The notes beneath the pieces were generated by a model, which made no database searches, had not been told where the DNA came from, and saw only the letters and a program-made list of their open reading frames with translations. From contig JBGOVO010000001.1 of NCBI GenBank assembly GCA_041478145.1, forward strand, positions 5,702-69,701: DNA of 64,000 nucleotides, read 5' to 3'. Below are positions 31,129-62,350 of this stretch, piece by piece. A program made the translations under genes and the position numbers. This DNA is from Candidatus Methylomirabilia bacterium (GTDB taxonomy: Bacteria > Methylomirabilota > Methylomirabilia > Rokubacteriales > CSP1-6). Within the stretch, counting starts at the first letter, position 1. Every line of letters begins with the position of its first letter.

Positions 31129-32201
31129 CCTGGACGCTCCACTCGGCAGCCGAGGCCTTCGAGGGGCACCGGGAGACCTGGGATGCGCTGAACCGGGCGA
31201 ACGGGAATCACGTCCTGCTGGACTCGGGGTTCGTCGCCATCCTTCTCCGTCATTTCGGTCACGCGGGGGTGAAGCTCGCCGTGTCCGAGCATCCGGAACG
31301 GCCGGGCCTGGCCCTGCTCGAAAGGACCCGCGGCGGCTTCTGGCGGACATTTCAGCCCTCGCAGGCGCCGCTCGGCCTGATTCTGTTCGGCTCCCGCCAG
31401 GACATCTTCGGCCAGATCCAGCGGCTCATTCGCGCCCTGCCCGGGTACGCGCTGGGCCTGGCCGTGCTGCAACAGGATCCGGACTTCACCTGCTTCGGAG
31501 ACCTCGCTCCGAGGCCAGATCTGGAAACCCTCGACTACATCCGGACGGCCCGGCTGACCCTGACCGGCTCCTTCGATGACTACTGGAGCTCTCGCGACCG
31601 GCGCTGGTCTCGCGACCTCGCGCGGCAGCGGCGCCGCCTGGTCGAACGCGGGGCCCGCCTCGAGCTCCAAATCACCCGTGAGCCGGAGGAGGTCGGCGCC
31701 GCCATCCGCGACTACGGGGTCCTGGAGGCTGCGGGCTGGAAGGCGAAGCACGGTACGGCCATCGCGCCCGAGAACGCCCAGGGGCAGTTCTACCGGGAGG
31801 CCCTCGAGTACTTCTGCGCCCGAAATGAAGGCGTCATCTACCGGCTGCGCCTCGAAGGGCAGACGGTGGCCGCCAACCTGTCCATCGAGCGCGACACGAT
31901 GCTGATCGTCCTCAAGATCACCTACGACGAGAGCATCCCGACCCTGTCGCCGGGACATTTCCTCGAGGCGGAGATGCTGCGCGCGGTGTTCGCGGAGGGG
32001 CGCATCAAGGTCGAGGAGTACTACGGCCCCTTCAAGGACTGGCAGGCCCGCTGGACCGACGAGATCCGGACCATGCACCACCTGAACTTCTACCGGTCCG
32101 CGGCGGCGGCGAGGGTTCGTCAGCTCCTGAAGACGGCCGCCGGCGGCGTGCGTGATCTCCGGCGCCGGATCGCCGGGCGAGGAGCCAGGGAGCAGCCGTG
32201 A
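31125..32201 (+). CDS. CelD/BioF2-like GNAT-fold acyltransferase (FemAB-related)
   Basis: About 358 aa. GTG start overlaps the upstream TGA. C-terminal GNAT-like region (LEAAGWKAKHGTAIAPENAQGQFYRE). Confidence 0.5.
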   Translation: MTWTLHSAAEAFEGHRETWDALNRANGNHVLLDSGFVAILLRHFGHAGVKLAVSEHPERPGLALLERTRGGFWRTFQPSQAPLGLILFGSRQDIFGQIQRLIRALPGYALGLAVLQQDPDFTCFGDLAPRPDLETLDYIRTARLTLTGSFDDYWSSRDRRWSRDLARQRRRLVERGARLELQITREPEEVGAAIRDYGVLEAAGWKAKHGTAIAPENAQGQFYREALEYFCARNEGVIYRLRLEGQTVAANLSIERDTMLIVLKITYDESIPTLSPGHFLEAEMLRAVFAEGRIKVEEYYGPFKDWQARWTDEIRTMHHLNFYRSAAAARVRQLLKTAAGGVRDLRRRIAGRGAREQP

Positions 32202-33472
32202 CGCAGCGGGTGCTCATGGTCGCCTTCCACTACCCACCCTGCGTCGGGAGCAGCGGCGTCCATCGCACGCTCAAGTTCTCCCGCTACCTGCTGGATCACG
32301 CCTGGCAGCCCGTCGTCCTGACCGCGAACCCTCGCGCCTATGCCCAGCGCGCCGAGCACCAGCTCGCCGAGATACCCGCGGCGGTGGCGGTCGCGCGCGC
32401 ATTCGCACTGGACTCGCGCCGCCACCTGGCGATCCGCGGCTCCAGCCTGCGGCTCACCGCCCTGCCGGATGCCTGGTCGAGCTGGTGGCTCGGAGCGATT
32501 CCGGCCGGGCTCCGCCTGATCCGCCGGTACCGTCCCGCCGCACTCTGGTCCACGTATCCGATCGCCACTGCGCATCTGATCGGCTTGACGCTCCACCGGC
32601 TCACCCGGATCCCCTGGGTCGCCGACTTCCGCGACTCGATGACCGAGGAGTTCTCCCCTTCGGATCCGGCGACCCGGCGAGCGTTTCTCTGGATCGAGCG
32701 GCACACCGTCCGCGCCGCGGCCCGGCTGGTCTTCACCGCGCCGTCGACGAAGCGCATGTACCTCGACCGCTACCCCGGCCTACCCGCGTCGCGCTGCCTC
32801 GTCATCTCGAACGGCTACGACGAGACCGACTTCGCCGGTCTCCTGCCCTCGACGCCTCCGACACCGGCCCCGCTCCGGCTCATCCACGCCGGCGTGATCT
32901 ACGAGTTCGAGCGGGACCCGCGGCCCTTCTTCCGCGCCCTTGCGCGGCTTCGCCGGGAGGGGCGGGTCGGCGCGCAGAGCCTCCGCGTAGAGCTGAGGGG
33001 ATCGGGGACAGACGCTTACTGCGCCCGCCTCATCCGCGAGCTCGGGATCGACGACTTCGTGCACGTCCTCCCCGCGCTCCCGTACCACGAGAGCCTCGAG
33101 GACTGCATGACGGCCAGCGCCCTTCTCCTCCTCCAGGGGGAGAGCTGCAATCACCAGATCCCGGCGAAGGCGTACGAGTATCTCCGCCTCGGCAAGCCGA
33201 TCCTCGCGTTGACGTCGGCCACCGGGGACACCGCCGGGCTCCTCACCGAATGCGGTGGCAGCACGATCGAGGATCTGGCGGACGAAGAGGCCATCTACCG
33301 GATCCTGCCGGGGTTTCTCGACTCGCTGCGCGCTGGCACCCACGCTCTGCCCGAGCCCGCGCGGGCCGGGCGCTATGCGCGGCACAGCCAAGCGCGGGAC
33401 CTGGCCGCCTGTCTGTCCGAGGTTGCCGCGGCGCGGAGGGACGGCGCCGCCGTCGGAGTCGGCGATGGGTGA
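32198..33472 (+). CDS. glycosyltransferase (GT-B fold, GT4-like)
   Basis: VLMVAFHYPPCVGSSGVHRTLKFSRYLLDHAWQPVVLT N-terminus and a C-terminal GT-B half. A GTG start overlaps the upstream stop. Confidence 0.6.
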   Translation: MTQRVLMVAFHYPPCVGSSGVHRTLKFSRYLLDHAWQPVVLTANPRAYAQRAEHQLAEIPAAVAVARAFALDSRRHLAIRGSSLRLTALPDAWSSWWLGAIPAGLRLIRRYRPAALWSTYPIATAHLIGLTLHRLTRIPWVADFRDSMTEEFSPSDPATRRAFLWIERHTVRAAARLVFTAPSTKRMYLDRYPGLPASRCLVISNGYDETDFAGLLPSTPPTPAPLRLIHAGVIYEFERDPRPFFRALARLRREGRVGAQSLRVELRGSGTDAYCARLIRELGIDDFVHVLPALPYHESLEDCMTASALLLLQGESCNHQIPAKAYEYLRLGKPILALTSATGDTAGLLTECGGSTIEDLADEEAIYRILPGFLDSLRAGTHALPEPARAGRYARHSQARDLAACLSEVAAARRDGAAVGVGDG

Positions 33473-39451: not shown

Positions 39452-40498
39452 GTGACGATGGCCGCCGCCAGGGTTCCGGCCCTCCTCTTGCTCGCCACCG
39501 CCGCTCTGCTCCCGGCTGCGCCCCGGGCCGCCGCGGCCTCGGCCCTCGGCGACCTGGCCGCTTCCATGGCTCCCGGGACCTGGGCGGAGCTCAAGACGAA
39601 CGGGCTGACGCCGGCCCTCCTCCAGGTCCCGCGCCCCGTCATGATCTACAACGTGCTGGAGTACCAGAACAGCGGGGTCTGGGATCCTACCTCGCACCAG
39701 GTGCTCTTCGTGGGCGGGCCGCACGACGGCCTTGGGAAGTTCATCACCTACGACGAGCAGACCAATACCTGGCGGCAGGAGCCGGACCCGAAGCCAGAGG
39801 ACATGCTCGCGACCCACGGATACGACCACAACACGATCAATCCCAACACGGGTGAGCTGTACTTCCGTCCTTACGACAGCTCGAACATCTGGAAGTACCA
39901 CATCCCGACGAAGACGTGGAGCCGGCTGACGAGGATCCCGAACGAGGAGTACAACTGCTGTGGCGCCATCGAGTATTTTCCCGAGCGGAACGGCATCCTC
40001 TTCGTCGGCCGGAACGAGATCGAGTTCTACAGCTTCGGCTGGCGGAGCTGGTCCACGCCGTCCGCGACCATCAAGACGGGGCCGTACCATGCCACCGCGG
40101 AGTACAGCCCGGTGGACAAGGTCGTGGTGTTTGGGGGAGGCAGCGGCGTCAAGACCGTGTACGTCATGGACCAAAAGGGAGGCGTCAAGCGCGCCACCGA
40201 CTCCCCGTTCCCGCTCGACAGCGGAGGTCACGCCATTTTCACGGCGGACCCGGCCAGCGGGAAGTTCCTGCTCTTCGCCGAGGACGGGACCTTTCACGTT
40301 TACGATGCGGTCACCGATCGCTGGCAGCTCCAGAGCCAGCGGCCGCCCTTCTTCGACGTCGGACAATACGGCCCGGTGAGCTGCTCCATCGCGATCCCGA
40401 TCAGCACCCACGGCGTGGTGATGGTGCTCACCTACAATGCGCGCCGGCCCACGGTCTTTCTCTACAAGCACGCGGCCGGCCCCGCCGCGCCACGGTAA
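39452..40498 (+). CDS. secreted Kelch-like beta-propeller protein (hypothetical)
   Basis: Ala-rich signal peptide MTMAAARVPALLLLATAALLPAAPRAAAA. Repeated Kelch-like blades (ILFVGRNE, VVVFGGGSG, FLLFAEDGTFHVYD). Confidence 0.45.
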   Translation: MTMAAARVPALLLLATAALLPAAPRAAAASALGDLAASMAPGTWAELKTNGLTPALLQVPRPVMIYNVLEYQNSGVWDPTSHQVLFVGGPHDGLGKFITYDEQTNTWRQEPDPKPEDMLATHGYDHNTINPNTGELYFRPYDSSNIWKYHIPTKTWSRLTRIPNEEYNCCGAIEYFPERNGILFVGRNEIEFYSFGWRSWSTPSATIKTGPYHATAEYSPVDKVVVFGGGSGVKTVYVMDQKGGVKRATDSPFPLDSGGHAIFTADPASGKFLLFAEDGTFHVYDAVTDRWQLQSQRPPFFDVGQYGPVSCSIAIPISTHGVVMVLTYNARRPTVFLYKHAAGPAAPR

Positions 40499-42748: not shown

Positions 42749-43543
42749 TCAAGCGGGACAACCAGTGGCCCGGAAGTAGAGGGAATCGGTCAGGATCACC
42801 TTGACGCGAGGATCCCGGGTGAGCTCGCACAGCGTGCCGGGATCATTGACGGTGAACAGGTGGATCGGCACGCGCGCGAACACGAAACCCACCGACCTGT
42901 CATATTGCATGTAATCGAGTGATACGGCGGCAAAGCTCGCTGAGCGGAATCGCATGCCGGCCACGAGGAGATCGCGTACATGCGCCAGGCGGCCCGCCCG
43001 CGTCGGGGTGATCTGGAGCCAGAGGCTGGTTCGCATCCCTAGGCTGGCCACTGCGCCGAGTCTCCTCGGATCCACGGACTCGACGATCGCCCGGTCACGC
43101 ATTCGGGCGGTCTCGAGCTCGGTCCGCAGGCTATCGGTGGCGCGCTGCGCATCCGTGTCGGACAGCGTTCTCAGGTTCCAAAAGTCCAGCCAGACCAGGC
43201 CGTGTGGCGGCACGGCGGCGAGCATTTCGGTCAGATGCAGAACCGCGGGCAGCCTCGCCGCAACCGCCTCTTCCGAGATCACGTAGAGTCCATTCCGCCG
43301 GGCATCGTAGATCACGTCGATCTCGACACCAGGTGCCCCGAGGGCAAAGGCGCGTCGGAGCCCCTGCGGAGAGTTCTCCGGCGCGCCGTCCGAGAGGGCC
43401 CGGTGAGACCAGGCCTTGCTCGGGCCCTGGTAGAAGACCGGCACCGTCGGATTCGGCCGGAGAACGTAGACGAGCGCCCCACCGAAGGCCAGGGGCGCGA
43501 TGGCAGCTGAGATCAGAATCGACCGCGCGGACCTGACCCGCAA
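42749..43543 (-). CDS. glycerophosphodiester phosphodiesterase family protein (membrane-anchored)
   Basis: GP-PDE motif HRALSDGAPENSPQGLRRAFALGAPGVEIDV with an N-terminal TM anchor. Last gene of the minus-strand operon. Confidence 0.7.
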   Translation of the reverse strand: MRVRSARSILISAAIAPLAFGGALVYVLRPNPTVPVFYQGPSKAWSHRALSDGAPENSPQGLRRAFALGAPGVEIDVIYDARRNGLYVISEEAVAARLPAVLHLTEMLAAVPPHGLVWLDFWNLRTLSDTDAQRATDSLRTELETARMRDRAIVESVDPRRLGAVASLGMRTSLWLQITPTRAGRLAHVRDLLVAGMRFRSASFAAVSLDYMQYDRSVGFVFARVPIHLFTVNDPGTLCELTRDPRVKVILTDSLYFRATGCPA

Positions 43544-53825: not shown

Positions 53826-54857
53826 CTAGACGCGAACCCACCTCAGGTCGCGGTCCAGCCGTCCCTGGTCGAGCAGGTGCTTGATCTGGGTGAGGCGGAT
53901 GAATCGGCGCCCCTGGAACTCGGCCAGCGTCACGTCCGCGTCCTGGAGCGCGTCGTAGAGGTCCTTGGCGCCGAACGAGGCGTTCCACTGTGGCCGGAAA
54001 TCGGGGAGCGTCCGCGTCAGCTTCGAGAAGTCCACGCGGTAGCTGCGGGGGTCCGGGCCGGCACCTTCCGCGTACTCCACCGTGCAGCCCGCGACGGTGG
54101 CCCGCACGATCTCGGCCAGCTCGCGCACCTGATAGTTCTCGCCGTTCGCGCCCACGTTGAAGGCCTGGTTGTGGATGGCTTCGCGCGGCGCGGCCAGCGC
54201 GGCTGCGAACGCGCGCGAGATGTCCTGGACGTGCACGATGGGACGCCAGGGCGTTCCGTCACTCATGATGCGGATGCGGCCCGTCGTGTGTGCCCAGCAC
54301 ACGAGGTTGTTGAGTACGACGTCGGCCCGGAGCCGCGGGGATACGCCGTAGGCCGTGGCGTTCCGCATGAACACCGGGCTGAAGGAGCTGTCGGCGAGCT
54401 TGGCGACGTCTTCCTCGGTTCGCACCTTGGAGACCGCGTAGGCGGTGAGCGGTCGCAGCGGAGCGTCCTCGGTGAGCAGGTCGTCGGCGCCCGCCGCGCC
54501 GTACATGCTGCACGACGAGGCGTACAGGTAGCGCTTCACTCCCGCCTCGCGGGCGAGCCGGGCCAGGTCCACCGACGCCCGGTGGTTGATGTCGTGCGTC
54601 CACTCTGGATGCAGGTCCCCGAGAGGGTCGTTGCAGAGCGCGGCCAAGTGGGCCACGGCATCGAAGCCCTCCAGGTCGGACGATCGGATGTCCCGGATAT
54701 CCTTGCGGAGCACGGCGATGCGCTCGCTGCCATCCCTGAGGGTGCAGTCCTCGAAGAAGAACGTATCCAGCCCAACCACGTCGTGACCGGCCGCCTGCAG
54801 CACGGGAAGCATGACCGACCCGATGTAGCCGTTGTGCCCAGTCAGAAGAACGCGCAT
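53826..54857 (-). CDS. NAD-dependent epimerase/dehydratase (SDR; candidate CDP-hexose 4,6-dehydratase or 4-ketoreductase)
   Basis: MRVLLTGHNGYIGSVMLPVL Rossmann motif and a YAVSK catalytic dyad. First gene of the minus-strand operon. Confidence 0.8.
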   Translation of the reverse strand: MRVLLTGHNGYIGSVMLPVLQAAGHDVVGLDTFFFEDCTLRDGSERIAVLRKDIRDIRSSDLEGFDAVAHLAALCNDPLGDLHPEWTHDINHRASVDLARLAREAGVKRYLYASSCSMYGAAGADDLLTEDAPLRPLTAYAVSKVRTEEDVAKLADSSFSPVFMRNATAYGVSPRLRADVVLNNLVCWAHTTGRIRIMSDGTPWRPIVHVQDISRAFAAALAAPREAIHNQAFNVGANGENYQVRELAEIVRATVAGCTVEYAEGAGPDPRSYRVDFSKLTRTLPDFRPQWNASFGAKDLYDALQDADVTLAEFQGRRFIRLTQIKHLLDQGRLDRDLRWVRV

Positions 54858-54927
54858 TCCTGCTCCTCTCTCCTCTTAAAGGTCAGGGTGAGAACATCCG
54901 ACCCTGCCAAGTCGGGACGTGATGAGA

Positions 54928-54942
54928 GCAAACAAAGTGCCA
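54928..54942 (-). promoter_or_regulatory. sigma-54 (-24/-12) promoter for the minus-strand decoration operon
   Basis: The plus strand reads GCAAACAAAGTGCCA, so the minus strand reads TGGCAC-TTTGT-TTGCT, a perfect GG-N10-GC consensus. It lies about 70 nt upstream of the first operon gene, whose start is at 54857. Confidence 0.55.
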
Positions 54943-55158: not shown

Positions 55159-56397
55159 TCATGGTTGGGGACTCAACTGAATCGGGCCGCTGGGTCGCTC
55201 GACCGCTCCGAGCGTCGGCGGGTTCCCGCGCTTCGAGCCGAAGAAGTCATCCGCGACCACGTCCTCACCGCGCACCCCCCCCAGCCCCTGCAGCAGGGAG
55301 CCCGGAGCCGGTGAGAAATCGAGGGCGTCGGGGTTCACAAAGCACGCTGCCCAGGTGCAGTCGACGTTGCCGCCCAGCCGCACGCCTACCCGAGGCCTGG
55401 GCAGGGCCGGGGTGCCGGACCGCACGTGCGCGGCGTTGTTGAGGATGCGCGCCAGCAGCAGTCCGGACTCGGGCGCGGTGATCCCACCCTGCCCGTTGTT
55501 GTAGACCGTGTTGTGGATCAGCGTGATGGCCCGGAGGAGTCCCCGCTGCTGATAGTTCTCCAGACCGATCCCTGCTTCCGCATTCCACCCGGAGATGTTG
55601 TTCCGGACGACGGCTGGGCCTCCCCCCACGACGATGCCCGACGAGGTGCGCGAGCCTCGCACGAAGTTGCGCTCGATCACGCTAACGAGCGTGATGTCGC
55701 GCGACCCGAAGACCATGATACCCGGGCCCTTCGTGCCCACGATGCGGTTGTCGCGAATCACCCCCGCCGAGTTCAGCTTCACCTCGAGCCCGTAGCCCAC
55801 CTCCTCGGGCACCGCCGTCACGCCGTGGATGTAGTTGCCCTCCACGAGCAGTCCGCTGACGGCGCACGCGGTACCATTGTGGCAGCCGAAGTACATGCCG
55901 GTAGAGCCGGAATCCACGATCACGTTGCCGCGAACCGTGAGGCCCTGCACACTCGCGTGGGTCGAGGCGATCGCGATCCCTCCCAGCTCGGAGAAACGGC
56001 AGTCTTCCACGGTGATGCGGTTGCCCGACATGATCCGCACTCCATCCGCTTCTCCGCGGGCCGCCCAGAAGTCGAGGCCCCGGATCGTGATATCGCTGGC
56101 GCGGATCTCGAGAAGATTGACCGGCTGGCCCGGATACACGAGTCGTGCCCGGTGGTCGGGATCCACCGACCGGATGACGAGCGGGCGTCCCGACTCTCCT
56201 CCGCGCCGCAGCTTGCAGCCTCCTCGATAGTCGCCCGGCCGGAGGACGAGCTCCTCGCCTGGCGGCAGCGCCCGGATGGCGGCACACAGATCCGACTCCG
56301 GACCGATCTCGAGCGCCCGCGCCGCGGCGGGGACGAGGCCGCCGGCCAGCAGGGCTGCCAAAGCGATGCCGGCGCCATCCATCAGTCGTGTCAACAC
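55159..56397 (-). CDS. secreted right-handed parallel beta-helix repeat protein (pectate-lyase fold; candidate polysaccharide lyase/depolymerase or C5-epimerase-like)
   Basis: Signal peptide MLTRLMDGAGIALAALLAGGLVPAAARA. Repeated beta-helix rungs (ITIRGLDFWA, ITVEDCRFSE, VQGLTVRGNVIVDS, LLVEGNYIHG, IRDNRIVG, VVRNNISG). Confidence 0.65.
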   Translation of the reverse strand: MLTRLMDGAGIALAALLAGGLVPAAARALEIGPESDLCAAIRALPPGEELVLRPGDYRGGCKLRRGGESGRPLVIRSVDPDHRARLVYPGQPVNLLEIRASDITIRGLDFWAARGEADGVRIMSGNRITVEDCRFSELGGIAIASTHASVQGLTVRGNVIVDSGSTGMYFGCHNGTACAVSGLLVEGNYIHGVTAVPEEVGYGLEVKLNSAGVIRDNRIVGTKGPGIMVFGSRDITLVSVIERNFVRGSRTSSGIVVGGGPAVVRNNISGWNAEAGIGLENYQQRGLLRAITLIHNTVYNNGQGGITAPESGLLLARILNNAAHVRSGTPALPRPRVGVRLGGNVDCTWAACFVNPDALDFSPAPGSLLQGLGGVRGEDVVADDFFGSKRGNPPTLGAVERPSGPIQLSPQP

Positions 56398-56490
56398 AGC
56401 ACCTCCTATGCGCTTGTCCGCTCCTGATCGTATACGCTAGACTCCCGTCGACGCCAATGTATAAGCCGAACACGCCTTGCCGGCTCCGCC

Positions 56491-56940
56491 ATGTCTGATG
56501 AGGCCGGCCCGACGCCCCGAATCTTCCCGGACATGGAGATGCGCCATCTCCTGGCCCGGGAGGTGCAGCGCTGCACGCGCTACCAAGCGTTCCTCTCGGT
56601 CTGTCTGATCCGCGCCGCCTATTCGGGCGCGCCGCGAGCCGACATGGAGAGCGCGATCGCCCGGCGCATCGCCGACATGCTGCGCTCCACCGATATCGTC
56701 GGCGTCATCGGGCAGGATATCGCGGTGGTCCTCGTGCACACGCCGGACACGGACGCGGCCACGATCGCCGACCGCATGCGTGATCGGGTCCAGAGCGACT
56801 CCTCCGGCGCGCCGCCGTCGGAAGGCCGCGTGGACCTCAGCATCGGCGTCGCCTCGTTTCCCACCGACGCCACGAGCGACCCCGGCCTTCTCGCGCACGC
56901 TCAGGCCCAGCTCCAGGCCGCGCGGCGCGCAGCCGGTTGA
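56491..56940 (+). CDS. stand-alone degenerate GGDEF-like domain protein (GQDIA in place of GGDEF, RxxD I-site retained)
   Basis: Aligns to the GGDEF core: RSTD-IVGVI-GQDIAVVLVHTPDTD corresponds to RxxD-5aa-GGEEFvvllPdtd, and the C-terminal VDLSIGVASFP corresponds to the ITvSiGVA element. The N-terminal substrate-binding part of the domain is missing. Confidence 0.5.
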   Translation: MSDEAGPTPRIFPDMEMRHLLAREVQRCTRYQAFLSVCLIRAAYSGAPRADMESAIARRIADMLRSTDIVGVIGQDIAVVLVHTPDTDAATIADRMRDRVQSDSSGAPPSEGRVDLSIGVASFPTDATSDPGLLAHAQAQLQAARRAAG

Positions 56941-56990: not shown

Positions 56991-57650
56991 ATGGCTCTCT
57001 ACGTGGTCGAGCGCGATCTGAGCAATATCCCCCCGGAGCAATTGCGTCTCGACCAGCGCGATGTCGCCTCCGTGTGCATCCAGCTCAAGGCGCGGGGCAA
57101 GCGCATCCGCTATATCAGCAGCGCGGTGGTGCCGTCCGACGGACGCGCGCTCGATCTGTTCGGGGCGGAAAATGCCGAGCTGATCAAAGAGGCCCACGCC
57201 TCCGCCGGCGTCCACTACTCGCGCATCGTGGAGATTCTCGACCTCACGCCGAGCTTCGTCCACCGGGATACGTCGCGATCGAGGCGCTCACTGCAGCGAT
57301 CCGTCGGTGCCTCCGCCGATGCGGGCGCCGTGAAAGGGACCGGGCACACCATGACTGCAAACTCGGCGCCCGAGCTGGCACGATGGCTCGCCGACGGCCA
57401 GCGGCTCTTCGGCGTGTGCCTGGAAGCGCTCGAGAACCTGGAGCGCTTGCAGAGCCGGAGTCACACGCTGGAGAGGGAGAACGAGATGCTCCGGGAGGAG
57501 GTCGCGCGCCTGCGCCAGAAGGTCGATGTGCTGCAGGCAGACCGGTCCGAGATGGTGGCCGCGTTCAATGATCTCGCCGGCCACGTCACGCAGGTCGTGG
57601 ACCACATCCTGCAAAAGTCCGAGGACGGAGAAAACTCGAACCCGAAGTGA
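56991..57650 (+). CDS. DUF4242-like N-terminal domain protein with C-terminal coiled coil (hypothetical)
   Basis: MALYVVERDLSNIPPEQLRLDQRD...YISSAVVPSDGRALDLFGAENAELIKEAHASAGVHYSRIVEI resembles the DUF4242 (SCO4226-like) fold. C-terminus has heptad-like LERENEMLREEVARLRQKVDVLQ. A GGAGGAGG RBS lies upstream. Confidence 0.45.
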   Translation: MALYVVERDLSNIPPEQLRLDQRDVASVCIQLKARGKRIRYISSAVVPSDGRALDLFGAENAELIKEAHASAGVHYSRIVEILDLTPSFVHRDTSRSRRSLQRSVGASADAGAVKGTGHTMTANSAPELARWLADGQRLFGVCLEALENLERLQSRSHTLERENEMLREEVARLRQKVDVLQADRSEMVAAFNDLAGHVTQVVDHILQKSEDGENSNPK

Positions 57651-57668
57651 TCGCGAGGCAGCCGCGTC

Positions 57669-57685
57669 GGTGTAAAAGTTACACC
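57669..57685. promoter_or_regulatory. perfect 7-bp inverted repeat with 3-nt spacer (GGTGTAA-AAG-TTACACC); hairpin or operator candidate
   Basis: Lies 18 nt after the stop of the DUF4242-like gene. The extended arms pair over 8-9 bp (CGGTGTAA/TTACACCG). No U-tract follows. Confidence 0.3.
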
Positions 57686-58230
57686 GAACGTCGGTAAGTT
57701 CTTCGGGCGATCGACCCCGGAAAGATCAGCGCGGCGACGGGGGCCCGGTCCGTGACCGTTCATCCTGCCGCGCGTCAAAAACTCCGACACCATTTTCCGG
57801 GTCATGCTATGTGCAATTAAGATGTGCACACCGGGCGAGCAAGGACGCCGGCTCGCTTACGGGAGGGAGTCTCCTGGTTGCCGGGCAGCTTCGCAGAGGC
57901 GCTAACCATCCGGGAAGTCAGTCGAATTCGCCACTTCTTCTCCGCGGGCTGGAGTTGGCGCCGTACCGGAAGAAAAGTAGAAAGCTCGGTCACCGTGAAG
58001 CGCCTAGCACATTCCTTCGTAGTGCATGCAACAGTTGCGAGCGCTGAGCCTGCCCGGAAGTCATTGAATTCGGTGGCATTAATTCACGAGGAAACGCCAG
58101 CACGTCAGTCTTCATTAACAGTGGCGTCAGAAAGGAACTGGATTTCCCATTAAGTGAAGTTGATTGCCTCTCCACCGCGGCGTTCTGGTTCGGTAGATCA
58201 GGCACTTGCACACTTCAGTGATAAGTCCGG

Positions 58231-58245
58231 ATGGCACCTCCTTTG
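58231..58245 (+). promoter_or_regulatory. sigma-54 (-24/-12) promoter upstream of the enhancer-binding-protein operon
   Basis: TGGCAC-CTCCT-TTGCT is a perfect GG-N10-GC consensus, about 80 nt upstream of ATG 58325. Confidence 0.55.
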
Positions 58246-58324
58246 CTCTTCGTAACCACGCCAACGCGTATGGTCGGGATTTCACACGAGGGCTCATCTG
58301 AACCCCTGGACGAAAGATGACGCA

Positions 58325-59719
58325 ATGAAGAACAGACTAGTGCTCGTCGCTGCCCCGGAAGCGCGCTCCCAGCAGCACCTCGCCGCGACACTCAGCGAAT
58401 GGGGCTATGAGCCGGTGTGTACGAGCTCGCTCGAAGACGCGCTGCCGGAAATGGCGCAGCGACGGTTCTTGCTGAGCCTCCTCGACCTCGGCGCGAGCGC
58501 GGGAGAGCTGCTCCGCCGCCTCCGGACGCAAGGAGGCTCGCCGGGCGCCATCGTCGTGATCGCCGACGCCGACGCGGGCGAACGCGCTGTGGAGGCCACC
58601 TCGCTCGGCGCCGACGACTTCCTCCAGAAGCCGTTCACGTCCGACGACCTCGAGAACGTGATCAAGAGCGCCCTGTCACGCCCGCGGCGAAGCTGGGAGC
58701 GCACGCCCGACGACGAGACTCGGAGCCGACTCCACGAAGAGGTCGGGCTCTGGCGCAGCGCGAAGATGAGGGAGGTCCGCGACATCATCGAGCAGGCGGC
58801 CCGCGTGGACGTCACCGTGCTCATCTGCGGCGAGACGGGCACCGGCAAGGACGTCGTCGCGCGCGCGGTCCACGACGAGTCGATCCGCGAGAGCGGCCCC
58901 TTCGTCAAGGTCAACTGCGCCGCGGTGCCCCGCGAGCTGCTCGAGAGCGAGCTATTCGGCCACGAGCGCGGGGCCTTCACGGGCGCGCACCAGCTCAAGA
59001 TCGGCAAGTTCGAGTCGGCCGACCGCGGCACCATTTTCCTGGACGAGATCGGCGATCTGCATCCCGCGCTCCAGGGCAAGCTCCTGCACGTGTTGCAGGA
59101 CGGTCAGTTCTCGCGCGTGGGCGGCCGCTCCACCGTCAAGGTGGACGTCCGCGTGCTCGCCGCCACCAACCAGGATCTCGAGCAGGCGGTGGCGACGGGG
59201 CGGTTCCGGGAGGATCTCTACTACCGGCTGAACGTCATCCAGATCGTGGTGCCGCCGCTGCGCGAGCGCCCCGAAGAGATCCCGGTCCTCGCCGAGTACT
59301 TCATGCAGCGCTACTCGCAGCTCTTCCGCCGCGAGAGCCTGCGCCTCCCCGCGGAGACCGTGCAGCGGCTCATGCACCACCGGTTCCCGGGCAATGTCCG
59401 GGAGCTGGAGAACATGATCAAGCGCATGATCGTCCTCGGCGACCCGCTCCTGCGGCGCAGTCCCCTGCCCGGCGGCGTGCCCGTGACCGAGGAGAACGGC
59501 GCCCCGCGCCCGGCCAAGGCCGCGACGCTGTCGTTGAAGGACATTTCGCGCAAGGCCGCCCAGATCGCGGAGCGCGAAGCCATCCTTCAGGCGCTGGAGC
59601 AGACGCAGTGGAACCGCGTCCGCGCCGCCAAGCTCCTGGAGATCTCGTACCGGGCCCTCCTGTACAAGATCAAGGACGCCGGGCTGGACCGTGAGCGCCG
59701 CGGAGCCCACCGGTCATGA
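58325..59719 (+). CDS. sigma-54-dependent Fis-family transcriptional regulator (PEP-CTERM-box response-regulator PrsR-like) with atypical receiver domain
   Basis: AAA+ sigma-54 activator core (VLICGETGTGKDVVARAVH, ESELFGHERGAFTGA, GAFTGA-type loop) and a C-terminal Fis HTH (NRVRAAKLLEISYRALLYKIK). In the N-terminal receiver-like domain the acidic pair is replaced (LVLVAAPE), while LLDL and KPF are retained. Confidence 0.85.
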   Translation: MKNRLVLVAAPEARSQQHLAATLSEWGYEPVCTSSLEDALPEMAQRRFLLSLLDLGASAGELLRRLRTQGGSPGAIVVIADADAGERAVEATSLGADDFLQKPFTSDDLENVIKSALSRPRRSWERTPDDETRSRLHEEVGLWRSAKMREVRDIIEQAARVDVTVLICGETGTGKDVVARAVHDESIRESGPFVKVNCAAVPRELLESELFGHERGAFTGAHQLKIGKFESADRGTIFLDEIGDLHPALQGKLLHVLQDGQFSRVGGRSTVKVDVRVLAATNQDLEQAVATGRFREDLYYRLNVIQIVVPPLRERPEEIPVLAEYFMQRYSQLFRRESLRLPAETVQRLMHHRFPGNVRELENMIKRMIVLGDPLLRRSPLPGGVPVTEENGAPRPAKAATLSLKDISRKAAQIAEREAILQALEQTQWNRVRAAKLLEISYRALLYKIKDAGLDRERRGAHRS

Positions 59720-61299
59720 GCGACGCGGTCCGGGGCCTCGACGACGCGGCCGCCACCCCGCGCGGCTCCGGCCTCGGCCGCTTGCGCCTGGCCTGGAGCC
59801 GGCGGAAGTGGCTGGGCATGCTTGTGGCCTTGGTGCCGCTCACCGGCGGCGTCAGCATCATCATGGCGCTGCCGGATCTTTACCAGTCCACCGCCCTCGT
59901 GATGATCGAGCGCCAGCAGGTTCCGGAGGCGTTCGTCAGACCCACGGTGACGAGCCAGCTCGAGATCCGCCTGCAGACCATCAGTCAGGAGATCCTCAGC
60001 CGCTCCCGCCTCGACACCCTCATCACCCGCTTCAATCTGTACCCCGAGCTGCGGAAGGCCACCTCCTCCGAGGAGGCGGTGGACCGGCTGCGGACCGACA
60101 TCCGGCTCGAGCTGAAGGCCGACGCCGGCAGGGTCGGCACCACGACCGCCTTCGCCCTCTCCTACCGGGGACGCGACCCGCAGACGGTGGCGCTCGTCAC
60201 CAACACCCTGGCGTCCTTCTACATCGAGGAGAATCTCAAGGCGCGGGAGCGACAGGCGACGGGAACCGCCGAGTTCCTGCGTGTCCAGCTCACGGAAGCC
60301 AAGAAGCGCCTCGACGACCAGGAGACGCGGGTGAGCGGCCTGCGGCGCCGGTACCTTGGGCAGCTCCCCCAGCAGATGCAGGGTAACCTCGCCACCCTGG
60401 ATTCGCTCACCGGGCAACTCCGCATCAACAGCGACAACCAGGTCCGCCTGGCCGAGCGACGCGACCAGCTCGTCTCCCAGCTCGCCCAGGCCCGAATTGT
60501 CGCCGGCGACGAGACCGACGAGATGCTCCTGGCCCGGCTGCGGCGCGAGCTCAGCCTGCTGCGCATCAAGTACACGGACCTGTGGCCGGATATCATCCGG
60601 ATCAAGGACGAGATCGCCAACCTCGAGAAGCAGATAGCGGGGCCGAAGCCCAAGGCCGCGGCCAAGACACCGCCTCCGCCCAGCCCCGAGGTCATGCGGA
60701 TCCAGGAGGCGATCCAGATCGCCGAGACCGAGATGAAGCTGTTGAAGGTGGATGAGCAGCGCATCCGCCGCTCCCTCGAGACGTACCAGTCTCGCGTCGA
60801 GAACGCTCCCAAGAGCGAGCAGGAGTTTCTCGAGATGACGCGCGACTACGAGGGGACCCGGGAGCTCTACCAGACGCTCTCGAAGCGCTACGAGGAAGCT
60901 CTGCTCGCCGAGAGCATGGAGCAGCGCCAGAAGGGCGAGCAGTTCCGGGTCCTGGACCCGGCCCTCGCGTCCTCGGTGCCCACCGCGCCCAAGCGGTCAC
61001 GGCTTCTTCTCGCCTGCGTCGCGCTGTCACTGGCCCTCGGCGCCGGCGCCGTGGTGCTCGCGGAAATGCTCGATACCTCGTTCCATTCGACCGGCGATCT
61101 CCGTGCCTACACCACCGTCCCGGTCCTGGTGAGCATTCCGAGGATCTCGACCGGAGCGGACTCGCGGCGCGAGCGGTGGCGGTTCCGGTTCGCGGCCGCC
61201 GGCGTGCTCGTTTGCCTCGTGGTGCTCGCCGGCTCCTGCTACTTCTTCGCTCACGGGAACGAGCAGCTCGCCCAGCTGCTCTCCCGCGGGCGCGCGTGA
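59716..61299 (+). CDS. polysaccharide chain-length determinant protein, PEP-CTERM-locus subfamily (Wzz/PCP-like)
   Basis: N-terminal TM segment (WLGMLVALVPLTGGVSIIMAL), a long coiled-coil periplasmic domain, and a C-terminal TM segment (LLLACVALSLALGAGAVVLA). ATG overlaps the upstream TGA. Confidence 0.8.
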   Translation: MSDAVRGLDDAAATPRGSGLGRLRLAWSRRKWLGMLVALVPLTGGVSIIMALPDLYQSTALVMIERQQVPEAFVRPTVTSQLEIRLQTISQEILSRSRLDTLITRFNLYPELRKATSSEEAVDRLRTDIRLELKADAGRVGTTTAFALSYRGRDPQTVALVTNTLASFYIEENLKARERQATGTAEFLRVQLTEAKKRLDDQETRVSGLRRRYLGQLPQQMQGNLATLDSLTGQLRINSDNQVRLAERRDQLVSQLAQARIVAGDETDEMLLARLRRELSLLRIKYTDLWPDIIRIKDEIANLEKQIAGPKPKAAAKTPPPPSPEVMRIQEAIQIAETEMKLLKVDEQRIRRSLETYQSRVENAPKSEQEFLEMTRDYEGTRELYQTLSKRYEEALLAESMEQRQKGEQFRVLDPALASSVPTAPKRSRLLLACVALSLALGAGAVVLAEMLDTSFHSTGDLRAYTTVPVLVSIPRISTGADSRRERWRFRFAAAGVLVCLVVLAGSCYFFAHGNEQLAQLLSRGRA

Positions 61300-61306
61300 G
61301 CGCCCC

Positions 61307-62350
61307 GTGGCCATCTACGTCAACTTCTACGGGTTGGAGCGCGATCCCTTCGGGCCGACGCCCGATCCGGACTTCCTCTTCCTCACCCCGGGCCACAAGG
61401 AAGCCCTCGCCCAGCTGCTCTACGCCATCCAGGAGCGGAAGGGCTTCATCCTGGTCACGGCCGAGGTGGGCATGGGGAAGACGATGCTCCTGCAGGCCCT
61501 CCGCCAGGAGCTCGACAGCACGACGGCCGTCGCCTACGTGTCGAACTCGATGCTCCCCTTCCCCGGCATCCTCGAATACATGCTGGCGGAGTTCGAGATC
61601 CAGAAGCCCGGCGAGTCCCACGCCCAGCGGCTGGTGGCGCTCCAGAACTTCCTGCTCGAGCGCCACCGGACCGGGCAGAGCACGGTCCTGATCCTCGACG
61701 AGGCGCAAAACCTCTACCCGCAGACGCTCGAGCAGATCCGGCTCCTGTCCAACTTCGAGACCACCAAGGAGAAGATCCTCCAGATCGTGCTGGTTGGGCA
61801 GCCCGAGCTACTGGCCCGCCTCGATCTCCCGGAGCTGCGGCAGCTCAAGCAGCGCATCGCCATCCTGTGCACGATTCCGCCGATGACAGCGTCCGGAACC
61901 CGGAACTATATCCGGACCCGGCTGCGCCTAGCCGGTTCCCGGGATCTCGGGATCTTCACGGAAGAGGCGCTGGCCCGCATCTCGGCCCACGCCGCCGGCA
62001 TCCCGCGCGTGGTCAACACGCTCTGCGATCACTGCCTGCTCATCGGCTACGCCGACCAGACCCGACGCATCGACGGCGGCATCGTCGACCAGGCCGTATC
62101 CTATTTCCATGGCGGTCTGCCGGCCCGGCCGGCGCGGCGGGTGCGCTCGACCCCGAGCGTCGCGCGGCGGCGAGCCCGCCGCCGCATGGGGCCGCTCGGC
62201 TGGGGCCTTCTCGGCACGTCGGCCGCCGTCGTGGCCGCCGTCGGCGCCCTGGTCATCCTCCATCCCGGGCTTTTGCCCCAGGCGATGGGCCTCTCGAGCG
62301 ATCAGTTCTGGGACATGGCGCGCACCCTGCGCACCTTGATCGGCGGATGA
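61307..62350 (+). CDS. AAA ATPase of the PEP-CTERM/XrtA-locus secretion-ATPase type (ExeA/GspA-like)
   Basis: LERDPFGPTPDPDFLFLTPGHKEALAQLLYAIQERKGFILVTAEVGMGKTML contains the Walker A motif, and the Walker B motif is VLILDEAQNL. GTG start. Confidence 0.8.
   Translation: MAIYVNFYGLERDPFGPTPDPDFLFLTPGHKEALAQLLYAIQERKGFILVTAEVGMGKTMLLQALRQELDSTTAVAYVSNSMLPFPGILEYMLAEFEIQKPGESHAQRLVALQNFLLERHRTGQSTVLILDEAQNLYPQTLEQIRLLSNFETTKEKILQIVLVGQPELLARLDLPELRQLKQRIAILCTIPPMTASGTRNYIRTRLRLAGSRDLGIFTEEALARISAHAAGIPRVVNTLCDHCLLIGYADQTRRIDGGIVDQAVSYFHGGLPARPARRVRSTPSVARRRARRRMGPLGWGLLGTSAAVVAAVGALVILHPGLLPQAMGLSSDQFWDMARTLRTLIGG

What the first reader, a model, noticed from the sequence alone, without database searches (positions are those of the whole stretch)
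56491..56940. Stand-alone degenerate GGDEF (GQDIA) with intact RxxD I-site next to the sigma-54 EPS regulator: candidate c-di-GMP receptor
The 149-aa protein aligns to the GGDEF catalytic core but has GQDIA in place of GG(D/E)EF and lacks the N-terminal GTP-binding half, so it cannot be a cyclase. The inhibitory-site RxxD (RSTD) sits exactly five residues upstream of the degenerate motif, as in PleD, which is a known c-di-GMP-binding configuration. The gene is the nearest same-strand neighbour upstream of the orphan enhancer-binding protein, whose receiver lacks the acidic pair and which has no adjacent sensor kinase. A c-di-GMP-responsive protein-protein input into sigma-54 activation of the EPS operons is therefore plausible.
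Basis: partly seen in the sequence, partly recalled or inferred. Interest (0 to 1): 0.6.

Follow-up and report, generated by a model that had tools for sequence, protein, structure and literature searches.

The report
Dead GGDEF domain, likely c-di-GMP sensor
A small, catalytically dead relative of the enzymes that make the bacterial signal c-di-GMP has kept only its c-di-GMP-binding pocket and always sits beside a sigma-54 gene activator in a slime-polysaccharide cluster, so it is probably a new sensor linking that signal to polysaccharide production in uncultured soil bacteria.

Summary
The 149-aa ORF at 56491-56940 (+) is real. It is a whole but trimmed GGDEF fold (Pfam 35.4 bits against a cut-off of 23.8; AF2 pLDDT 88.8; TM 0.70-0.79 to solved cyclases).

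It cannot be a cyclase:
- The GG(D/E)EF hairpin is variable across the family.
- The metal-binding Asp is Arg.
- The FKxxND GTP-binding stretch is deleted.

Among 182 distinct homologues (33-69% identical) only eight residues never change. Five of them are the c-di-GMP allosteric-site positions: R65/D68 (RxxD), R95 (PleD R390) and R27/R30 (the two alternative secondary-site arginines).

The gene is part of a conserved module in Rokubacteria/Methylomirabilota: dead GGDEF, then a SCO4226-like/coiled-coil protein, then a sigma-54 activator with a pseudo-receiver, then XrtA/PEP-CTERM-type EPS genes. A downstream activator was found in 28 of 32 informative loci. A distant clade places the GGDEF between two activators instead. 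A perfect sigma-54 promoter precedes the activator gene in all 31 sequences checked (30 loci plus the window).

Three details are wrong: the domain is not "half", another gene lies in between, and the activator fails the PrsR cut-off. Ligand binding and protein partners remain untested.

Verdict: a new variant of a known kind.

The parts
56414..56443 (+). Probable sigma-70-type promoter of the dGGDEF/SCO4226cc two-gene unit (TTGTCC-N18-TAGACT, with the conserved 'GCTAGACTCCC' box).
   Evidence: The motif 'G(T/C)GCTAGACTCC' is conserved 20-60 bp upstream of the start codon in most aligned loci. The sequence was read. That it acts as a promoter is an inference.
56491..56940 (+). 149-aa stand-alone degenerate GGDEF domain protein (dGGDEF), the predicted c-di-GMP sensor.
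56569..56580 (+). Codons R27-C-T-R30: the two alternative secondary I-site (Is) arginines on helix alpha1.
   Evidence: Both are invariant in 182 of 182 sequences. R30 aligns with DgcR R163 (alignment, index offset 20, checked on R206xxD209). R27 is at the PleD R313 position, 14 residues before the metal Asp position. That count uses the PleD sequence from memory.
56683..56694 (+). Codons R65-S-T-D68: the primary I-site RxxD motif.
   Evidence: R65 and D68 are invariant in 182 of 182 sequences. They align with PleD R359/D362 and DgcR R206/D209.
56710..56724 (+). Codons G74-Q-D-I-A78: the degenerate remnant of the GG(D/E)EF active-site hairpin.
   Evidence: The columns vary across the family: G 71%, position 75 is D in only 42%, position 76 is D in 61%. 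The hairpin is one residue shorter than in cyclases.
56773..56775 (+). Codon R95: the third primary I-site residue (PleD R390, DgcR R237, PelD R402-type).
   Evidence: Invariant in 182 of 182 sequences. 'iaeRir' aligns with PleD 'IAERIR'. Role taken.
56991..57650 (+). 219-aa SCO4226-like (ferredoxin-like) domain, then a disordered basic linker, then a 90-residue helix (coiled coil). Conserved middle gene of the module and a candidate partner or anti-activator.
   Evidence: PF14026 scores 38 bits against a cut-off of 28.5. AF2 gives beta-alpha-beta-beta-alpha-beta for residues 1-84, disorder for 87-121 and a helix for 125-215. 408 homologues were found; the 120 listed are 67-94% identical, with an invariant C-terminus. 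Present within 300 bp downstream of dGGDEF in 34 of 53 loci. Reverse look-ups gave 3 of 3.
57651..58231 (+). Long regulatory intergenic region with phylogenetic footprints: TGTAAAAGTTACA (57671-57683), TGTGCAATTAAGATGTGCACA (57810-57830), GCAACAGTTGC (58028-58038) and AAGGAACTGGATTTCCC (58132-58148). These are candidate activator or IHF sites.
   Evidence: Conserved blocks appear in the alignment of 12 loci. The motifs are unique in the window. The gap length of about 610-750 bp is conserved. Their function is inferred.
58232..58247 (+). Sigma-54 promoter (TGGCACCTCCTTTGCT), 78 bp upstream of the activator ATG.
   Evidence: Perfect consensus match. TGGCA[CT]-N5-TTGCT is present 71-162 bp upstream of the activator start in 31 of 31 sequences (30 loci plus the window).
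58325..59719 (+). 464-aa sigma-54 enhancer-binding protein: pseudo-receiver, AAA+ domain and Fis-type HTH.
59716..62350 (+). First genes of the downstream EPS operon: the XrtA-system chain-length determinant (59716-61299) and a PEP-CTERM-associated ATPase-like gene (61307-62350).
   Evidence: TIGR03007 scores 290.8 against 278.85. TIGR03015 scores 250.9, below its cut-off of 324.5. The first gene overlaps the activator stop codon by 4 bp. Synteny.
54927..54942 (-). Second perfect sigma-54 promoter (TGGCACTTTGTTTGCT), about 70 bp upstream of the divergent sugar-modification operon (epimerase 53826-54857 and following genes).

Best explanation
The 149-aa protein descends from a diguanylate cyclase. 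It has lost everything needed for catalysis and kept, under absolute selection, the complete allosteric product-binding site: the primary site R65xxD68 plus R95, and the secondary-site arginines R27/R30.

Most likely it is a cytoplasmic c-di-GMP sensor. When c-di-GMP rises, intercalated c-di-GMP dimers bind the primary site of one monomer and the secondary site of another. This cross-links two copies into a defined dimer, as in product-inhibited PleD and DgcR.

This ligand-dependent change is then passed by protein-protein contact to the adjacent regulatory proteins. The contact is either direct, to the non-phosphorylatable pseudo-receiver of the sigma-54 activator, or indirect, through the co-transcribed SCO4226-like/coiled-coil protein acting as anti-activator or co-activator. 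Either way the AAA+ activator is released. The activator then fires the conserved sigma-54 promoter of its own operon (positive feedback, with the chain-length determinant and downstream EPS genes) and the other sigma-54 promoters of the XrtA/PEP-CTERM-type polysaccharide cluster.

Shown here: the fold, loss of the A-site, invariance of the I-site, the conserved gene module, the pseudo-receiver, and the conserved sigma-54 promoter.
Inferred: c-di-GMP binding, ligand-induced dimerisation, the identity of the partner, and the direction of the effect.
For: 1. GGDEF homology and fold.
2. Catalytic residues are gone. R41 replaces the metal Asp, the FKxxNDxxGH segment is deleted, and the hairpin is variable and one residue short.
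3. In 182 distinct homologues (33-69% identical to the query) only R27, R30, Y31, R65, D68, R95, F123 and P124 are 100% invariant. Five of these eight are the I-site positions defined for PleD and DgcR (alignment; roles from PMC7288161 and PMC8041772). [quoted passage not shown]
4. Synteny. 28 of 32 loci with at least 2.5 kb downstream carry a sigma-54 activator downstream. Five distant loci have the order activator-dGGDEF-activator. The four exceptions belong to a paralogous subgroup. Reverse look-ups from the middle gene gave 3 of 3.
5. The activator downstream of dGGDEF has a non-canonical receiver in both architectures. In architecture A there is no acidic pair, a loop deletion and no Thr/Ser. 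In architecture B, Asn replaces the phospho-Asp and Arg replaces Lys. No kinase is nearby.
6. A sigma-54 promoter lies upstream of the activator in 31 of 31 sequences (30 loci plus the window), and there are three perfect sites in the window, all correctly placed in front of genes.
7. The cluster is an XrtA/PEP-CTERM-type EPS locus. TIGR03006, 03007, 03019, 03097 and 03098 are above their cut-offs.
Against: - No binding data exist.
- No diguanylate cyclase, phosphodiesterase or PilZ gene was found in the 645 kb of window plus related loci.
- I could not verify that these uncultured lineages make c-di-GMP.
- No fusion of this domain to an activator exists among the best 150 representatives, so there is no Rosetta-stone support.
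- A paralogous subgroup with the same invariant residues occurs away from activators (L007, L087, L088, L090), so the domain is not tied to one partner.
- The window's own copy has Ala at position 33, where 181 of 182 relatives have Asp.
- dGGDEF evolves much faster (40-70% identity) than the activator (80-90%) or the middle gene (67-94%). That is unusual for a tight obligate complex.
- The predicted models give no coordinates, so the spatial arrangement of the five residues was not checked.
Confidence: 0.5

Rival explanations
1. The protein is a c-di-GMP receptor, but its target is the polysaccharide machinery itself rather than transcription. That would be post-translational activation, as with PelD, BcsE, PssE or YdaK. 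Possible targets are the chain-length determinant/tyrosine-kinase pair or the ExeA-like ATPase.
For: It sits inside a 64-kb EPS cluster. All well-studied degenerate-GGDEF receptors for EPS act on the synthesis apparatus (PelD in PMC2170427; the others are from my own knowledge). I-site invariance fits this reading equally well.
Against: Those precedents are membrane-anchored or are subunits of synthase-dependent systems. This protein is a soluble single domain in a Wzx/Wzy-type cluster (Polysacc_synt flippase, Wzy_C, GNVR). The gene that stays next to it in both architectures is an activator, not a biosynthetic gene. It is transcribed separately from the EPS operon, from its own conserved promoter-like box.
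Confidence: 0.15
2. The protein is a ligand-independent pseudo-enzyme, a structural adaptor or anti-activator. Its conserved arginines and aspartate serve protein-protein (or nucleic-acid) contacts, not nucleotide binding.
For: No c-di-GMP enzymes lie near any of the loci and no ligand data exist. Arginine-rich surfaces can bind acidic partners. The other invariant residues (Y31, H83, F123-P124, and E24 at about 99%) are family-specific.
Against: The invariant set coincides with five predefined ligand-contact positions of homologous solved complexes. With 8 invariant residues out of 149 positions, the naive chance that 5 named positions are all among them is about 1e-7 (my arithmetic; it is not corrected for their partial conservation in cyclases). 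Active-site positions, which would be equally available for contacts, are not conserved.
Confidence: 0.18
3. The pocket binds a different nucleotide, such as cGAMP, another cyclic dinucleotide or (p)ppGpp. The module then reports a signal other than c-di-GMP.
For: The best sequence match in the PDB is the Geobacter GGDEF of entry 6d9m. From my own knowledge this is a cGAMP-making Hypr enzyme. PleD structures with (p)ppGpp exist (9g85 and 9g86, listed). Nothing is known about second messengers in these phyla.
Against: The RxxD plus Arg site is documented for c-di-GMP in every case I could read. I did not establish where ppGpp binds in PleD.
Confidence: 0.07
4. The protein is a weakly active or GTP-sensing GGDEF, meaning a cyclase or a GTP-binding regulator like the degenerate GGDEF of CC3396.
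For: It passes the Pfam and TIGRFAM GGDEF thresholds, and databases name relatives 'diguanylate cyclase'.
Against: The GG(D/E)EF motif is absent and variable. The metal Asp is Arg in 81% of sequences. The segment carrying the guanine-binding Asn/Asp is deleted. The position that aligns with the phosphate-binding Lys (by my own alignment to the PleD sequence from memory) is not conserved.
Confidence: 0.02

Closest known systems
PelD (Pseudomonas aeruginosa): degenerate-GGDEF I-site receptor for Pel polysaccharide
   Same: Both have a catalytically dead GGDEF-like domain. [quoted passage not shown] The same triad is invariant here (R65, D68, R95). Both are encoded within an EPS cluster.
   Different: PelD is a membrane protein with TM and GAF domains and acts on the Pel synthase complex (my own knowledge). 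This protein is a soluble single domain of 149 aa. It also keeps the secondary-site arginines and is linked to a transcription activator. PelD was not among the top 50 structural matches, which were all canonical cyclases.
Product-inhibited diguanylate cyclases PleD and DgcR (I-site cross-linked GGDEF dimers)
   Same: Same fold (TM 0.76-0.79). All I-site residues are shared: PleD R359/D362/R390 plus R313*, and DgcR R206/D209/R237 plus R163*. The predicted mode of ligand binding and dimerisation is copied from these structures.
   Different: They are active enzymes with receiver domains, in which the I-site serves feedback inhibition. Here nothing is left to inhibit, so the site must be the output-generating sensor.
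PopA (Caulobacter) and the predicted class of 'A-site-minus, I-site-plus' GGDEF-only effectors
   Same: Seshasayee et al. 2010 predicted that most degenerate GGDEF-only proteins keep the I-site and act as effectors, with PopA as the proven case (PMC2952852). This family is a textbook example of that class.
   Different: PopA and most members of the class carry REC, PAS or GAF partner domains. This family has no partner domain at all. Its output must therefore be entirely through other proteins.
c-di-GMP-binding enhancer-binding proteins FleQ, VpsR, BerB and Nla24/EpsI
   Same: Same logic: c-di-GMP controls EPS genes through an NtrC-family activator. FleQ controls the pel promoter (PMC3424551, listed); the others are from my own knowledge.
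   Different: In those systems the activator binds c-di-GMP itself. Here a separate GGDEF-derived protein is proposed as the sensor. I did not test whether this activator could also bind c-di-GMP.
PrsK/PrsR two-component system of PEP-CTERM/exosortase EPS loci
   Same: Same type of locus (XrtA/PEP-CTERM marker families above cut-off). The regulatory output is also a sigma-54 activator placed next to the EPS genes (PMC1569441 and PMC9850573, listed).
   Different: The activator fails the PrsR model (344.6 against 502.6 bits). Its receiver lacks the acidic pair. No PrsK-type kinase is present in the window. The dGGDEF/SCO4226cc pair occupies the place where a sensory input would be expected.
Anti-activator or co-regulator partners of sigma-54 activators (PspA-PspF, HrpV/HrpG-HrpS, NifL-NifA, FleN-FleQ) and the GGDEF-transcription-factor pair DgcM-MlrA
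   Same: These are precedents for controlling an activator lacking a functional receiver through small partner proteins, including a coiled-coil one (PspA), and for a GGDEF protein acting directly on a transcription factor. All are from my own knowledge.
   Different: There is no sequence relationship to any of these partners. The analogy is only mechanistic, and nothing here tests it.

Membership tests
GGDEF domain superfamily (PF00990 / TIGR00254) | Score above the curated threshold of the family model. | tested here: met
   PF00990 scores 35.4 bits against 23.8, and TIGR00254 scores 41.5 against 37.4.
GGDEF domain superfamily (PF00990 / TIGR00254) | GGDEF (palm-like beta-alpha-alpha-beta-beta-alpha-beta-alpha) fold. 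| tested here: met
   AF2 pLDDT 88.8 and pTM 0.84. The top 50 Foldseek PDB hits are all GGDEF domains, with TMq 0.70-0.79.
Active diguanylate cyclases | GG(D/E)EF active-site motif. | tested here: not met
   GQDIA in the window. The family columns are variable, and the hairpin is one residue short.
Active diguanylate cyclases | Metal-binding Asp (PleD D327) and guanine-binding Asn/Asp (N335/D344) in the DxDxFKxxND segment. | tested here: not met
   R41 aligns with the first Asp (Arg in 81% of sequences). A 7-8-residue deletion removes the FKxxNDxxGH stretch. Residue numbering is from PMC7288161 and my own knowledge.
I-site (degenerate GGDEF) c-di-GMP receptors | [quoted passage not shown] | tested here: met
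   R65-S-T-D68, then five residues, then G74. Invariant in 182 of 182 sequences. The criterion is as defined in PMC2952852.
I-site (degenerate GGDEF) c-di-GMP receptors | Additional Arg about 30-35 residues downstream (PleD R390, PelD R402). | tested here: met
   R95 aligns with PleD R390 and DgcR R237 and is invariant.
I-site (degenerate GGDEF) c-di-GMP receptors | Secondary-site Arg on helix alpha0'/alpha1, needed for c-di-GMP-mediated domain cross-linking. | tested here: met
   R30 aligns with DgcR R163. R27 is at the PleD R313 position (my count). Both are invariant.
I-site (degenerate GGDEF) c-di-GMP receptors | Specific binding of c-di-GMP that is lost in RxxD mutants. | not testable with these tools
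   Requires purified protein (DRaCALA, ITC or MST).
PrsR (TIGR02915), for the neighbouring activator | Score above the equivalog cut-off. | tested here: not met
   344.6 bits against 502.6. The NifA, AtoC and NtrC models score higher.
PrsR (TIGR02915), for the neighbouring activator | Phosphorylatable receiver with a cognate PrsK kinase. | tested here: not met
   The acidic pair and Thr/Ser are absent, and there is a 3-residue loop deletion. No kinase is present in the window.
XrtA/PEP-CTERM-associated EPS locus (context) | Marker families above cut-off. | tested here: met
   Above cut-off: TIGR03007 (290.8 against 278.85), TIGR03098 (624.7 against 592.35), TIGR03006 (369.8 against 276.2), TIGR03019 (398.1 against 260.35) and TIGR03097 (427.2 against 188.1). 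Below cut-off: TIGR03015, 03018, 03087 and 03108. No exosortase gene or PEP-CTERM protein was identified in the window.

The most novel reading that the evidence does not exclude
A previously undescribed three-protein signalling module consists of a minimal I-site-only GGDEF domain, a SCO4226-like/coiled-coil protein and a pseudo-receiver sigma-54 activator. In Rokubacteria/Methylomirabilota it replaces the PrsK/PrsR two-component input of XrtA/PEP-CTERM polysaccharide loci. c-di-GMP-induced dimerisation of the GGDEF remnant would switch the activator on, directly or by titrating the coiled-coil protein. This would be the first case of a GGDEF-derived adaptor controlling a bacterial enhancer-binding protein.
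Probability: 0.35. Interest if true: 0.7.

Novelty: new variant of a known kind. Interest (0 to 1): 0.55.

Why it matters
Degenerate GGDEF domains that keep the I-site have been predicted as c-di-GMP effectors since 2010, yet few have a known output. This family is the stripped-down case: one domain, no partner domain, and an invariant ligand site. Its conserved gene neighbourhood points to a concrete, testable target.

If confirmed, it would show a new way for c-di-GMP to reach sigma-54 transcription, through an adaptor rather than by direct binding to the activator. It would also explain how receiver domains that cannot be phosphorylated are controlled. And it would give a first handle on biofilm and aggregate regulation in abundant but uncultured soil phyla.

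The module is small enough (three genes plus one promoter) to reconstitute in a heterologous host.

Tried and rejected
- c-di-GMP riboswitch or any known RNA in the window or in the 674-bp intergenic region: no Rfam hit at gathering score or at E of 1 or less.
- Rosetta-stone fusion of this domain to a sigma-54 AAA+ domain: none among the 150 best of 31,589 representative hits. The ten multi-domain hits I scanned are ordinary cyclases with GAF, PAS, TPR or HD-type domains.
- A local cyclase, phosphodiesterase or HD-GYP gene: tblastn with canonical domains against the window plus 92 loci (645 kb) found only the dGGDEF genes themselves.
- Evidence that the host phyla use c-di-GMP: two literature searches gave nothing relevant, and the cluster look-up of canonical hits returned other phyla.
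- Shared upstream activator sites among the three sigma-54 promoters: the conserved palindromes upstream of the activator gene occur nowhere else in the window.
- The gene inserted between dGGDEF and the middle gene in some loci (L038): an unrelated minus-strand 346-aa ORF, not a signalling gene.
- I considered modelling a complex by fusing chains. I dropped it because the tool returns no coordinates or inter-chain confidence and refuses non-window sequences.
- Overlapping antisense ORFs (for example 56437-56898, minus strand) were dismissed as GC-rich artefacts on codon-position GC.
Full report
**1. What is at the coordinates**

The ORF 56491-56940 (+) starts with ATG and encodes 149 aa. Its third-position GC is 0.87, like the surrounding genes. 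The same protein was called on independent metagenome contigs. It passes the curated thresholds of both GGDEF models: PF00990 at 35.4 bits against 23.8 (E 1.2e-8), and TIGR00254 at 41.5 against 37.4.

**2. Anatomy of the protein**

An AlphaFold2 model built from 30 homologues is confident (pLDDT 88.8, pTM 0.84). Its order of elements is helix 14-31, strand 35-44, helix 52-63, hairpin 69-73/76-82, helix 86-105, strand 114-123, helix 130-148. All 50 best Foldseek matches in the PDB are GGDEF domains, with TM 0.70-0.79 normalised on the query. They include T. maritima, DgcR, YfiN, WspR and PleD. So this is a whole, compact GGDEF fold, not the C-terminal half.

Profile alignments to solved cyclases and tblastn alignments to canonical domains show what has gone:
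- The first metal-binding Asp of the DxD motif is Arg41.
- The following FKxxNDxxGH stretch, which carries the guanine-binding residues, is deleted (7-8 residues).
- The GG(D/E)EF hairpin is one residue short.

Catalysis or GTP sensing is therefore excluded for practical purposes.

**3. What selection has kept**

The family has more than 120 clusters at 90% identity. All are stand-alone proteins of roughly 125-200 aa from soil and sediment metagenomes. Where named, they come from Candidatus Rokuibacteriota or Methylomirabilota. A full HMM search of 1.8 billion representatives finds 18 family representatives at E below 1e-30, all short single-domain proteins or fragments.

I aligned 182 distinct members, 33-69% identical to the query. 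Only eight columns are 100% invariant: R27, R30, Y31, R65, D68, R95, F123 and P124. The former active-site hairpin is free to vary: G74 71%, position 75 is D in 42%, position 76 is D in 61%.

The HMM alignment to DgcR can be put on the published numbering, because the aligned RxxD falls on R206xxD209 with an index offset of 20. On that numbering:
- R65/D68 correspond to DgcR R206/D209 and PleD R359/D362.
- R95 corresponds to DgcR R237 and PleD R390.
- R30 corresponds to DgcR R163.

R163 is the secondary-site arginine that cross-links two GGDEF domains through a c-di-GMP dimer (with PMC8041772).

R27 lies 14 residues before the metal-Asp position, which is where PleD has R313. That count is mine and uses the PleD sequence from memory, although it is consistent with residues N335, D344, R359 and D362.

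The literature defines the I-site as exactly these residues: R359, D362 and R390 of one domain, plus R313 of the neighbouring domain (PMC7288161). It also notes that arginines are enriched at either the R313 or the R163 position. PelD needs the same triad (R367, D370, R402) to bind c-di-GMP and to make pellicle (PMC2170427).

So five of the eight invariant residues are the ligand-contact positions of the allosteric site. This is the strongest single argument that ligand binding is the function under selection.

**4. Genomic setting in the window**

The whole 64 kb is a polysaccharide super-cluster. It encodes glycosyltransferases, sugar-nucleotide enzymes, a flippase, a Wzy-like ligase, asparagine-synthase-type amidotransferases and deacetylases. 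Several XrtA/PEP-CTERM-system marker families score above cut-off: TIGR03006, 03007, 03019, 03097 and 03098. There is no histidine kinase and no other GGDEF, EAL or HD-GYP gene.

The local gene order is:
- a beta-helix protein on the minus strand (55159-56397);
- dGGDEF (56491-56940);
- a 219-aa protein (56991-57650), 50 bp downstream;
- a 674-bp gap;
- a sigma-54 activator (58325-59719), whose stop codon overlaps the start of the chain-length determinant (59716-61299);
- an ExeA-like ATPase, a ParA-like kinase, a priming transferase and further genes.

**5. Conservation of the module**

I fetched 9 genome loci and 80 metagenome loci encoding relatives and mapped the window's neighbours onto them.
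- Of 32 loci with at least 2.5 kb downstream, 28 have a sigma-54 activator downstream on the same strand.
- Every locus in which the dGGDEF is more than 45% identical to the query has one.
- The usual order is dGGDEF, SCO4226-like protein, activator, chain-length determinant, ATPase.
- The four exceptions (L007, L087, L088, L090) belong to a paralogous subgroup with a longer 'GGNRVV' C-terminus. It keeps the same invariant residues.
- Members of that same subgroup also occur in a second architecture (L004-L006, L008, L009): activator-1, dGGDEF, activator-2, followed by Wza-like, outer-membrane, priming-transferase and GNVR-kinase genes.
- Starting instead from three homologues of the middle gene, chosen only for contig length, I found the small GGDEF gene upstream and the activator downstream in all three.

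The link between GGDEF remnant, activator and EPS genes is therefore not an accident of this window.

**6. The activator**

It has the Sigma54_activat, AAA-lid and HTH_8 domains, and a receiver that barely passes Pfam (33.5 against 30.2). It fails the PrsR equivalog model, scoring 344.6 against 502.6.

In 29 orthologues:
- the acidic pair is A/G followed by A/P/T;
- the phospho-acceptor Asp is kept;
- three residues are deleted from the loop after that Asp;
- the conserved Thr/Ser is D, A or S.

In the second architecture, activator-2, directly downstream of dGGDEF, has Asn in place of the phospho-Asp and Arg in place of the conserved Lys. Activator-1 looks canonical. In both arrangements the activator that follows the GGDEF remnant looks unable to be phosphorylated in the normal way. 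This fits an input by protein contact.

**7. Sigma-54 promoters**

The consensus TGGCAC-N5-TTGCW occurs three times without mismatch in the window. About 0.06 such matches would be expected by chance (my arithmetic). Each site is correctly oriented in front of a gene:
- 58232-58247, 78 bp before the activator ATG;
- 54927-54942 (minus strand), before the epimerase/methyltransferase operon;
- 23248-23263, before a 163-aa secreted protein.

TGGCA[CT]-N5-TTGCT is present 71-162 bp upstream of the activator gene in 31 of 31 sequences, that is 30 loci plus the window. So the activator operon is sigma-54-dependent, probably autoregulated.

dGGDEF and the middle gene lie outside that operon. They sit behind a conserved 'GCTAGACTCC' box that looks like an extended -10 element. 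The sensor would then be made constitutively and the activator operon inducibly.

**8. The middle gene**

It has an N-terminal SCO4226-like ferredoxin-type domain (PF14026), a disordered basic linker and one 90-residue helix. It is far better conserved (67-94%) than dGGDEF, and its C-terminus is invariant: EMVAAFNDLAGHVTQVVDHILQKSEDGE. It is absent from the second architecture.

It could be the direct partner of dGGDEF, of the activator, or of both. I cannot decide among these with the present tools.

**9. Mechanism proposed**

Because both the primary-site and secondary-site residues are invariant, I expect intercalated c-di-GMP dimers to cross-link two copies, as in inhibited PleD and DgcR. 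That ligand-dependent dimer, or the loss of the monomer, would be read by the activator's pseudo-receiver or by the coiled-coil protein. This would release AAA+ assembly and sigma-54 transcription of the EPS operons, with positive feedback.

Shown: sections 2 to 7. Inferred: ligand identity, dimerisation, partner and sign of the effect. I put 0.5 on the combined statement. That is about 0.7 for I-site nucleotide binding, multiplied by about 0.7 for action through the activator module.

**10. Rivals**

- A PelD-like post-translational role on the EPS machinery (0.15).
- A ligand-independent adaptor (0.18).
- A different nucleotide as ligand (0.07).
- Residual cyclase activity or GTP sensing (0.02).

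The points against my reading are these:
- There is no nearby c-di-GMP enzyme.
- I have no proof that these phyla use c-di-GMP.
- No domain fusions exist.
- Paralogues occur away from activators.
- dGGDEF diverges faster than its neighbours.
- The window's own copy has Ala33 where 181 of 182 relatives have Asp.

**11. Comparison with what is known, and novelty**

The kind is known. Catalytically dead GGDEF domains with an intact I-site were predicted as effectors in 2010 (PMC2952852) and proven for PelD and PopA.

The protein meets every sequence-level criterion of that class. It fails every criterion of an active cyclase (see the membership table).

What appears new:
- the minimal single-domain format;
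- retention of the secondary-site arginines;
- conserved coupling to pseudo-receiver sigma-54 activators, plus a SCO4226-like coiled-coil protein, in XrtA/PEP-CTERM-type loci that lack PrsK/PrsR.

Literature searches found no description of such a module. Known c-di-GMP-responsive activators such as FleQ bind the ligand themselves.

I rate it a new variant of a known kind, with interest 0.55. It is a well-supported, directly testable hypothesis in uncultured phyla, not a surprise in principle.

Noticed in passing
window 57651-58324: The gap between the SCO4226-like gene and the activator is unusually long. Its length is conserved (about 610-750 bp in 29 sequences). It carries sharply conserved palindromes and repeats: TGTAAAAGTTACA at 57671-57683, TGTGCAATTAAGATGTGCACA at 57810-57830, GCAACAGTTGC at 58028-58038 and AAGGAACTGGATTTCCC at 58132-58148. 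These occur nowhere else in the window. There is no Rfam match. They are probably activator or IHF sites, but an unannotated small RNA or peptide was not excluded.
   Followed up: partly
window 23248-23263 (+) and ORF 23334-23825 (+): A third perfect sigma-54 promoter sits inside the glycosyltransferase/flippase region. It lies about 70 bp upstream of a 163-aa protein with a signal peptide and no family match in NCBIfam. This is not a PEP-CTERM protein (it ends ...TLAVTLP). It may be a regulated secreted matrix or accessory protein.
   Followed up: partly
window 54927-54942 (-): A perfect sigma-54 promoter lies between the beta-helix gene and the epimerase/methyltransferase/dTDP-sugar operon. 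This suggests that the sugar-modification genes on the minus strand belong to the same regulon.
   Followed up: no
window 56587-56589 (codon 33 of the dGGDEF): The window's copy has Ala33 in the otherwise near-universal R-Y-Q-D-F motif; 181 of 182 relatives have Asp. The identical protein occurs on contigs from three samples (one JGI metagenome and two sequencing runs), so this is not a sequencing error.
   Followed up: partly
window 56991-57650: The SCO4226-like/coiled-coil protein is much more conserved than either neighbour would suggest (67-94% identity). Its C-terminal 28 residues are invariant, and its basic linker (TSRSRRS) is disordered. NCBI names relatives 'nickel-binding protein', but nothing here indicates metal sensing.
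   Followed up: partly
L004 8227-11894 (also L005, L006, L008, L009): A second architecture exists in more distant Rokubacteria. A canonical receiver-activator is followed by the dead GGDEF, then a second activator whose receiver has Asn instead of the phospho-Asp, then Wza-like and other EPS export genes. L008 and L009 show frameshifted calls, probably long-read errors.
   Followed up: partly
L001 and L003 (contigs CAYYRT010000407.1 and CAYYRT010000410.1): Two paralogous copies of the whole module (58% and 48% identical dGGDEFs) lie in one MAG labelled 'uncultured Acidimicrobiaceae'. All other named relatives are Rokubacteria or Methylomirabilota. This points to either a mis-binned or mis-labelled MAG, or a genuine duplication.
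   Followed up: no
window 1-64000: Many XrtA/PEP-CTERM-associated marker genes are present, but I saw no exosortase gene, no PEP-CTERM protein and no PrsK kinase in the 64 kb. Three ORFs have no family hit at the threshold used: 32198-33472, 39452-40498 and 42749-43543 (minus strand).
   Followed up: partly
L038 4248-5288 (-), similarly L045, L046, L052, L053: In one sub-clade an unrelated minus-strand gene of about 1.1 kb (346 aa in L038) is inserted between the dGGDEF and the SCO4226-like gene. The two genes are therefore not always co-transcribed.
   Followed up: partly
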